DNA from: the human T2T-CHM13v2.0 reference genome, Homo sapiens
Assembly: GCF_009914755.1 (NCBI RefSeq)
Contig: NC_060925.1
Reading direction: 5' to 3' (one strand)
Length of the DNA: 64,000 nucleotides
Part shown: piece by piece, positions 11,979 through 13,071 of the stretch
How positions within the stretch are numbered: position 1 is the first letter of the stretch
Layout of the letters: the number at the start of each line of letters is the position of its first letter
The notes under the pieces: model-generated
The model's input: the letters and a program-made list of their open reading frames with translations, nothing else
What the model was told of the DNA's origin: nothing
Databases searched by the model: none
Program-made: the position numbers and the translations under genes

Positions 11979-12838
11979 GTTGCAAACTGAGAACAAGGAC
12001 TTTTGTCTGTTAAATCCACTGCTATATCCCTAGCACTTAGAAAAGTGCCTGACACATGGTAAGTGTTCAAAAAAATACCTGTCAAATGAATGGAAGATAA
12101 CCTCACATGTGATTTAGCAGTGCTAGAGGCTTCCTGTAGATCATCATTCCTTTCTTCCTCATCCCTCTTGTGAATGCTTGCTCATGAATGCATCTTGTTC
12201 CACTGGGAAGGATCTGCAGGAGGAACCTCTGAGGCCTCAGATGTCAGGTGCTTATCCATCCACAGCTGCCTTGCAGGGACAGAAGCCCAGATGGCTTGGC
12301 TGTCCTCTTTATAAAAACTTCTGTGGCTCAGGCAGTGCTCTCGTGGTAGACCCAGCCCTCCTATCTTAGCCACAGCTGATGGCCAGATCAATATGTGACA
12401 CAAAGTCACAAAAAGTCTTCTGTCTCTGAAGGGGGCCTGGCAGGATGTATGCTCAATAGGAGCACTCTCTTTTGAGAGCTGGTAAATTGGTAAAATCCTT
12501 CTTTTGAAGAAGCATACCTGTTGGGTGAGCAATGAGGAAGTGGATCTTTTCCTGCTCTTTCATGCCTTGCGCTAAGGACTGGAAATGGGCAGAGAAAGGC
12601 ACTAACATTTGTGAGAACCTACTATGCGCCAGACATTTTGTAATTGTGAGAAACTACACCTAACATGTTGTATCCATGATGTGACAAGTGTGTAAAGACA
12701 GAAAACCAGTAGACTAAGCATGGCTAAGTGAAAGGATAAAAAAGATTTCATTGATGTTATTGTTCTGCCTCTGTGCCAGTGCTAGCAATCACCAATCTCA
12801 ATTTATTGTCACATGAAGAAAATACTTACCTGTATTTT

Positions 12839-13071
12839 TGTTATACATAAATGCTTGTTCCCTGGTGCCACAAATAACTAGCACTTAAACATAAATTTAA
12901 TTCTTTCAGCAAGGCAATCTTTATTTCTGCAGAAAGGGTGCTCTCACCATTATTTCATCTGTGATGAGCACCCTTTCTGCAGGAAATAAAGATTGTCTTG
13001 CTGAGAGAATTAAATTTATGTTCAAGTGCTATTTCTTTGCAGCACCAGGGAACAAGCATTTACATATAACA
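12839..13071. repeat. 233-bp inverted repeat/palindromic element made of two ERV1-LTR-like ends
   Basis: Arms 12839-12943 and 12966-13071 are reverse complements (~9 mismatches, 1 gap); TG...CA termini. Confidence 0.9.

What the first reader, a model, noticed from the sequence alone, without database searches (positions are those of the whole stretch)
12839..13071. 233-bp fold-back element made of two inverted LTR-like ends (MITE-like retroviral palindrome; small-RNA hairpin candidate)
Seen: ~105-bp arms at ~90% identity around a ~22-nt spacer that also partly pairs (tcac/gtga), TG...CA termini, and near-identical 5-bp flanks atttt/atttg. Recalled, not verified: the arm (...aataaagattgtcttgctgagagaattaaatttatgttcaagtgctatttctttgcagcaccagggaacaagc...aaca) resembles the poly(A)-signal/U5 end of MER4-group ERV1 LTRs. 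Inference: a U5-U5 snap-back DNA (e.g. folded strong-stop cDNA) has two att ends and could have been integrated as a unit by retroviral integrase. Five of the nine mismatches are C:A/A:C on plus, which become G:U pairs on a minus-strand transcript, so a long dsRNA stem would persist. It also places an AATAAA on each strand.
Basis: partly seen in the sequence, partly recalled or inferred. Interest (0 to 1): 0.75.

Follow-up and report, generated by a model that had tools for sequence, protein, structure and literature searches.

The report
Folded-back retroviral DNA fossil
A 233-base mirror-image stretch of the human genome is made of two back-to-back copies of an ancient retrovirus's end piece, and sister copies elsewhere suggest it likely formed when the virus's first DNA copy folded back on itself, a product regarded as a dead end, and was then inserted into the chromosome anyway.

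Summary
The palindrome is real: arms of 105/106 nt, 9 mismatches, 22-nt loop, TG...CA ends, 4/5 flank match. The right arm plus loop is the last ~135 nt of an abundant LTR family; the left arm is an inverted copy. The fold sits on a natural hairpin 31-32 nt after a TATA-like box, the likely start of R.

Four more fold-backs bounded by target-site duplications exist in this genome. In two, the palindrome replaces the 5' LTR of a provirus that keeps its tRNA-Ile primer-binding site, internal part and a U3-bearing 3' LTR, inside a perfect 5-bp duplication. In 3 of 3 loci that can be oriented, the loop is antisense to the provirus. That is what self-primed minus strong-stop DNA would give if it stood in for plus strong-stop DNA at the second strand transfer, leaving two U5 ends for integrase. 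The window copy is most likely the solo remnant.

It is not a MITE, and nothing here supports a small-RNA role. Self-priming is described in vitro as a dead end; ten literature searches found no report of integrated products. Verdict: new variant of a known kind, interest 0.65.

The parts
12834..12838 (.). Left copy of the likely 5-bp target-site duplication (ATTTT)
   Evidence: Ordinary copies have mostly 5-bp duplications.
12839..12943 (-). Left arm: R/U5 end of the LTR, reading on minus and ending in CA at 12839. In the model this is the arm newly copied after fold-back (partly 3' LTR-derived if the solo arose by recombination).
   Evidence: 88.7-91.7% identity to ordinary copies; role inferred
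12938..12971 (+). Natural hairpin of the LTR family (6-bp stem base GTGCTC/GAGCAC plus inner pairs) at the likely start of R; the fold point
   Evidence: Present in ordinary copies; 31-32 nt after a TATA-like box in 20 of 22; folds as DNA with the 3' end paired in 21 of 22
12944..12965 (+). 22-nt loop: ordinary LTR sequence in LTR sense on plus. By analogy with sister loci the original provirus read on the window's minus strand.
   Evidence: orientation of the window copy inferred
12966..13071 (+). Right arm: R/U5 end of the LTR ending in CA at 13071. In the model this is the original minus strong-stop DNA.
   Evidence: 96.2% over 106 nt to L002; role inferred
12985..12990 (+). AATAAA at the family's poly(A)-signal position (mirror copy at 12920-12925 on minus)
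   Evidence: only 1 of 39 ordinary copies has AATAAA here; the commonest variants read AGTAAA
13072..13076 (.). Right copy of the likely target-site duplication (ATTTG, 4 of 5 matching)

Best explanation
The element is two inverted copies of an endogenous retroviral LTR end joined at the LTR's own small hairpin, and it is likely the solo remnant of a provirus whose left end was a self-primed minus strong-stop DNA. Inferred steps: (1) a tRNA-Ile primes minus strong-stop DNA over U5 and R; (2) after RNase H removes the RNA, the 3' end folds on the R-start hairpin and reverse transcriptase copies back over U5 and the tRNA's 3' end, giving inverted U5 - antisense loop - U5 - PBS; (3) this product stands in for plus strong-stop DNA, pairing through its PBS with a full minus strand made from the second RNA copy; (4) strand-displacement synthesis gives a linear DNA with U5 attachment ends on both sides and no 5' U3; (5) integrase inserts it with a 4-5 bp duplication; (6) recombination between the inner arm and the 3' LTR leaves the solo palindrome. 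Shown: the anatomy of the end products at five loci. The element would have no promoter of its own and most likely no selected function.
For: L055 and L056 carry the palindrome at the 5' LTR position, followed by PBS, internal sequence and a U3-bearing 3' LTR, inside perfect 5-bp duplications (CCTAT, CTAAT). L057 has inverted U5 + loop + a stub of inner arm + a whole LTR inside GTCAC/GTCAC. L064 is a second solo palindrome with a perfect 4-bp duplication. The loop is antisense to the provirus in 3 of 3 loci that can be oriented. The PBS matches the 3' end of tRNA-Ile(AAT) genes in 3 of 3 fetched, out of 13 exact matches. The fold lies at the predicted start of R (20 of 22). The inversion ends at the LTR's CA in 4 of 4 full palindromes. 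Arms are closer to each other than to their own 3' LTR (19/243 versus 38/244 differences, p = 0.011), as two RNA templates predict. Arm-arm distance (42/472) is not below that of ordinary 5'/3' LTR pairs (30/496), so the duplication looks as old as the insertion. A sister LTR type with a weaker hairpin (median -3.0 versus -4.8 kcal/mol, n = 9 and 37) shows no fold-back among 238 core matches, against 5 loci among 188 matches (p = 0.016; 0.037 counting only the 4 caught by the shared pattern). Self-priming is documented in vitro (PMC6088434, PMC4668388, passages).
Against: The window copy itself has no PBS, no internal sequence and an imperfect duplication (4/5), so its route is read from sister loci. 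The transcription start is inferred from box spacing, not mapped. Arm similarity can also come from gene conversion: in L055 the arms share the rarer base at only 5 of 15 columns where they differ from the 3' LTR, in L056 at 2 of 15. The four control LTR pairs were top BLAST hits, so they are biased to low divergence. L057's outer arm differs from its 3' LTR at only 7 of 105 columns plus an end indel, and that end type matched exactly at just one other place, a local end duplication. L064's centre is rearranged, so its fold point is not clean. Three of three at the 5' side is a small count. PMC6088434 (passage) says self-primed products were not detected in endogenous HIV-1 reactions.
Confidence: 0.7

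Rival explanations
1. Direct insertion as a unit: the self-primed hairpin was copied into a double-stranded 233-bp palindrome, for example by a second tRNA priming on its new PBS, and integrase inserted that short DNA alone. Same origin by self-priming, no provirus stage.
For: Two solo palindromes have clean ends and duplications (window, L064). No other piece of this LTR family lies in the window. The homology available for solo formation is only 105-124 nt.
Against: Three of the five bounded loci keep a 3' LTR, two with PBS and internal sequence, so the provirus route is shown to occur. The short DNA would carry a long PBS overhang at one end and would be an unusually small integrase substrate (inference).
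Confidence: 0.17
2. Host rearrangement after insertion: an ordinary LTR lost U3 and gained an inverted U5 through replication template switching or hairpin-capped break repair at the natural hairpin.
For: The natural hairpin is a plausible switch point. L064's centre shows that local template switches happen here. Arms closer to each other than to the 3' LTR would also fit a later duplication. LTR start and inverted end share a 3-bp microhomology. Such mechanisms are in print (PMC4689423, PMC10766183; search listing only).
Against: A simple fold-back of a nascent strand would leave the loop in sense and copy past the LTR end into PBS or flank; neither is seen. It must stop exactly at CA and keep the duplication at every locus. 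Arm-arm distance is not lower than ordinary LTR pair distance.
Confidence: 0.1
3. A self-propagating MITE-like element, copied from one master by a transposase or integrase.
For: Short, with terminal inverted arms, and several copies.
Against: The window arms fall in a different LTR subfamily from the other fold-backs (branch support 100/99); fold-back arms are one side of a branch in 0% of 200 bootstrap trees. Lengths differ (233, 265-270 nt). Duplications are 4-5 bp like the parent LTR, not TA or 8 bp (lengths for Mariner and hAT recalled).
Confidence: 0.02

Closest known systems
Self-primed minus strong-stop DNA of HIV-1 (cTAR fold-back; PMC6088434 and PMC4668388, passages read; Guo 1997 and Driscoll 2000 seen only as references)
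   Same: The 3' end of strong-stop DNA folds on a hairpin at the start of R and is extended back over U5.
   Different: Described there from in vitro reactions as dead-end or abortive and not detected in endogenous reactions. Here the predicted product lies integrated in the germ line, joined to PBS and the rest of a provirus.
HIV-1 proviruses with asymmetric LTRs (PMC9278108, passages read)
   Same: Left and right ends are proposed to come from two co-packaged RNAs joined at the PBS, and are then integrated.
   Different: There the transferred piece is normal plus strong-stop DNA and the asymmetry is a deletion. The passages describe no inverted U5 in place of U3.
Solo LTRs of ERV1, MER4 group (LTR23/LTR24/MER66-like; the name is recalled. 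PMC5753468 passages list LTR23 and MER66 as MER4-related but give no sequence)
   Same: TG...CA ends, 4-5 bp duplication, R/U5 sequence, likely reduction by recombination.
   Different: No U3, two U5 ends, and a 105-bp stem.
Palindromic DNA-transposon MITEs that give hairpin RNAs (MADE1, MER53; properties recalled)
   Same: Short fold-back element in an intron that would form a long RNA stem.
   Different: Retroviral sequence and duplication length; each copy appears to have its own origin.

Membership tests
Ordinary ERV1-type solo LTR | TG...CA ends with a 4-5 bp target-site duplication | tested here: met
   Window 4/5. Of 28 loci, 13 had both ends callable: 7 perfect 5 bp, 2 at 4/5, 3 perfect 4 bp, 1 none.
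Ordinary ERV1-type solo LTR | U3-R-U5 order | tested here: not met
   Only the last ~135 nt of a 550-615 nt LTR is present; U3 is absent from the window.
Ordinary ERV1-type solo LTR | Match to a named Dfam/Repbase family | not testable with these tools
   No repeat library available; the MER4-group name is recalled.
Self-primed minus strong-stop DNA product | Fold at a hairpin that begins at the RNA 5' end | tested here: inconclusive
   Hairpin starts 31-32 nt after a TATA-like box in 20 of 22 and folds with the end paired in 21 of 22, but no start site was mapped.
Self-primed minus strong-stop DNA product | Loop antisense to the provirus, inner arm followed by PBS | tested here: met
   Antisense loop in 3 of 3 orientable sister loci; PBS in 2 of those 3, L057 being deleted there. 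Not testable on the window copy.
Self-primed minus strong-stop DNA product | Inverted copy ends at the U5 end, with no host flank copied | tested here: met
   4 of 4 full palindromes.
Self-primed minus strong-stop DNA product | Self-priming by reverse transcriptase on this sequence | not testable with these tools
   Needs an in vitro reaction.
DNA-transposon MITE | Many near-identical copies from one master | tested here: not met
   Five bounded loci, at least two subfamily origins.
DNA-transposon MITE | TA or 8-bp duplication (lengths recalled) | tested here: not met
   4-5 bp at all five loci.
Known microRNA precursor | Rfam match at gathering score | tested here: not met
   Best was mir-3158 at 38 bits against a cut-off of 97; generic hairpin matches only.
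Known microRNA precursor | Processed small-RNA reads | not testable with these tools
   No expression data.

The most novel reading that the evidence does not exclude
Self-primed strong-stop DNA is not a dead end in vivo: it can replace plus strong-stop DNA at the second strand transfer, giving a recurrent class of promoterless proviruses with U5 at both ends. In this LTR family these make up a percent or more of insertions, their rate depends on the stability of the R-start hairpin, and their solo remnants are ready-made 100-bp-plus RNA hairpins in host introns. The same class should be findable in other ERV families and in modern retroviral integration data.
Probability: 0.55. Interest if true: 0.78.

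Novelty: new variant of a known kind. Interest (0 to 1): 0.65.

Why it matters
If right, these loci are germ-line fossils of a reverse-transcription side reaction that, in the papers read here, is known from test tubes and treated as a dead end. They would show that it happened in real replication, that the product could be rescued through the PBS, and that integrase accepted two U5 ends. They would also mark the RNA 5' end of an extinct family to within a few bases, and give a defined retroviral route to long perfect hairpins in host transcripts. The signature (inverted U5, antisense loop, U5, PBS, intact duplication) can be searched in any genome or long-read integration set. The window copy itself has no shown function.

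Tried and rejected
Rfam: nothing near a gathering score.

Pattern searches also returned non-members. Of 21 matches, five lie in the four fold-back loci already found. The other 16 loci showed no self-inversion near the match; nine of them are ordinary sister-type LTRs read backwards. Of 6 loci, C5:29.26M was dropped as chance (control 5); it was not examined further. C12:119.97M (L065) is an ordinary LTR. L003 (C4:67.76M) has only about 17 nt of left arm and no clean left end, so it is not counted among the five.

The idea that L057's outer arm belongs to a separate short-ended subfamily was not borne out. Selection for a minus-strand stem was rejected (p = 0.45).

Literature searches turned up no description of such integrated fold-backs or of this locus. 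The library lacks most subscription and older virology papers and Dfam/Repbase notes; three primary papers were not held. Passages of PMC12711578, PMC12789967 and PMC4724089 did not bear on the mechanism or name the family. No supplements were read; family tables in them could name these loci. Earlier scan findings were not available.

Full report
OBSERVATION. The palindrome is present as described. Arms 12839-12943 and 12966-13071 pair with 9 mismatches and one single-base gap, around a 22-nt spacer that pairs further. Both strands fold far better than shuffles (z -24 and -26; 0 of 200 as stable). The ends are TG...CA with flanks ATTTT/ATTTG, and complementarity stops one base outside them. 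By the hub's gene table it lies in introns of two plus-strand lncRNAs (GNG12-AS1, LOC124900403). Rfam gives only generic hairpin scores.

WHAT THE ARMS ARE. A DNA search of the own genome had 754 candidates, of which 40 were scored. Apart from the window, each matched as a single arm, and the match covered the spacer as well as the right arm (query about 100-233). Window 12938-13071 is therefore the natural last ~135 nt of an LTR, and the left arm is the added inverted copy. Ordinary copies are 550-615 nt long. Of 28 loci, 13 had both ends callable: 7 perfect 5-bp duplications, 2 at 4/5, 3 perfect 4-bp, 1 none. The window's 4/5 flank match fits this; random flank pairs reach 4/5 in 2.2% of cases. 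I recall the family as MER4-group ERV1 (LTR23/LTR24/MER66-like); this was not testable.

THE FOLD POINT. Ordinary copies already carry a small hairpin at the fold. In 29 loci scanned it could be located in 22 LTRs, and in 20 of these it begins 31-32 nt after the first base of a TATA-like box. The sister LTR type has a clear TATA box at about the same place. The hairpin is thus likely the first structure of R. Minus-strand DNA ending at the hairpin's first base has its terminal base paired in 21 of 22 copies; it is paired in 0 of 22 one base further out, and in 15-17 of 22 two to four bases out.

SISTER LOCI. A two-arm pattern found four loci against 0 in the reversed control, and a DNA search with one of them found a fifth (40 of 790 candidates scored). 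L055 (C1:243.99M, 2.75 kb) reads: CCTAT, palindrome, PBS, internal part, U3-bearing 3' LTR, CCTAT. L056 (C16:38.4M, 8.4 kb including an L1 insertion) has the same order inside CTAAT/CTAAT. L057 (C4:172.45M) has inverted U5, loop, a 13-nt stub of the inner arm and a whole LTR inside GTCAC/GTCAC. L064 (C23:69.76M) is a second solo palindrome with a 4-bp duplication and a rearranged centre. The PBS sequence of an ordinary provirus of the family matched 13 places exactly; 3 of 3 fetched were tRNA-Ile(AAT) genes. An outer-arm pattern found only three known loci, control 0. L003 is an uncounted truncated candidate. The census is a lower bound.

ORIENTATION. In L055, L056 and L057 the loop reads antisense to the provirus, that is, inverted U5, antisense loop, U5, then PBS or 3' LTR. 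Self-priming of minus strong-stop DNA gives exactly this strand: minus U5, minus loop, then a new plus U5 and a PBS copied from the tRNA. Such a strand ends in a PBS, like plus strong-stop DNA, and could pair with a full minus strand from the second RNA. A simple fold-back of a replicating host strand would leave the loop in sense and run on past CA; the inversion stops at the LTR end in 4 of 4 full palindromes.

TWO TEMPLATES AND AGE. The model predicts that the two arms share one RNA template and the 3' LTR another. Arms differ at 6/124 (L055) and 13/119 (L056); inner arm and own 3' LTR differ at 17/124 and 21/120 (pooled p = 0.011). Four ordinary 5'/3' pairs differ at 6, 14, 4 and 6 of 124. 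Against this: those controls were top hits and biased low; gene conversion between arms could give the same pattern; most columns that separate arms from the 3' LTR have the rarer base in the 3' LTR (10 of 15 and 13 of 15); and L057 shows only 7/105 plus an end indel. Arm-arm distance over four loci (42/472) is not below the ordinary pair distance (30/496; p = 0.11), so the duplications look as old as the insertions. With recalled neutral rates, 9% suggests tens of millions of years.

INDEPENDENT ORIGINS. In a tree of 58 R/U5 pieces the window arms sit in another subfamily than the other fold-backs (branch 100/99), the label needs 3 changes, and L055's arms pair with each other (96/81) apart from their 3' LTR. 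The tree has only 129 columns and is poorly resolved inside subfamilies. This argues against a MITE.

HAIRPIN CONTROL. The core motif of the type with fold-backs matches 188 places and that of the sister type 238 (one mismatch allowed; matches are not loci). A pattern written to cover both types found fold-backs only in the first: p = 0.016 for 5 loci, 0.037 for the 4 that this pattern caught. The sister hairpin is weaker as DNA (median -3.0, n = 9, versus -4.8 kcal/mol, n = 37), but those nine were picked by another pattern. This is suggestive, not firm.

FUNCTION. Nothing here shows one. The excess of C:A mismatches is 5 versus 2 (p = 0.45). Three of the five lie at columns that vary among 7 ordinary copies as CpG decay would produce, and two are one adjacent double change. 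The AATAAA is at the family's poly(A)-signal position, where 38 of 39 ordinary copies lack that exact hexamer. A plus-strand intron transcript would form a 105-bp stem; editing or processing is untested.

MECHANISM AND ODDS. Shown: anatomy, duplications, PBS, orientation, separate origins. Inferred: start site, self-priming, second-strand rescue, integrase action, and reduction to a solo. Odds: fold-back provirus reduced to a solo 0.70; direct insertion of the short palindrome 0.17; host rearrangement 0.10; MITE 0.02.

COMPARISON WITH PRINT. PMC6088434 (passages) describes self-primed strong-stop DNA as dead-end products, not detected in endogenous HIV-1 reactions. PMC4668388 (passages) describes them as abortive in vitro products. 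PMC9278108 (passages) proposes two-RNA joining at the PBS for asymmetric HIV-1 LTRs, without inversion of U5. PMC5753468 (passages) lists MER4-related LTR names and has no mention of palindromes in its main text. Ten searches found no report of integrated fold-back LTRs; older virology papers, subscription journals, supplements and Dfam notes were not seen, so a prior description cannot be excluded.

VERDICT. The feature is real. It works like a self-primed strong-stop product that was integrated; it is not an ordinary solo LTR (no U3), a MITE or a known microRNA. New variant of a known kind; interest 0.65.

Noticed in passing
L064:190-250 (G000:C23:69.76M): The centre of this second solo palindrome has been rewritten so that a short natural palindrome in the arm is extended to a longer perfect one, which looks like a later local template switch.
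   Followed up: partly
L056:1590-7700 (G000:C16:38.4M): A 6.1-kb L1 (85.6% to the window's L1 at about 52.7-58.7 kb) sits inside this provirus. Without it the internal part is about 2 kb, similar to L055, which suggests a non-autonomous element; coding capacity was not tested.
   Followed up: partly
L020:1485-1633 and 2767-2915 (G000:C11:3.34M): Two LTRs of this family lie in opposite orientation about 1.1 kb apart.
   Followed up: no
L088:640-700 (G000:C15:97.93M): An LTR with a short tandem duplication of its 3' end; the second copy equals the unusual end of L057's outer arm over 24 nt.
   Followed up: partly
L003/L087 (G000:C4:67762240-67762380): R/U5 piece without U3, with about 17 nt of inverted arm and a possible 5-bp flank repeat a few bases off; perhaps a deleted fold-back.
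   Followed up: partly
window 47896-49378: Inverted pair of Alu-like repeats, 82% over 297 nt, within the plus-strand lncRNA intron; a more ordinary dsRNA source.
   Followed up: no
window 42618-42806 and 48180-48277: AT-rich low-complexity stretches that are self-complementary at about 73-75%; likely simple repeats.
   Followed up: no
L067, L068, L070, L072 (just after the LTR end): The family has three bases between the LTR's CA and the PBS in most copies seen, rather than the two recalled for most retroviruses.
   Followed up: no
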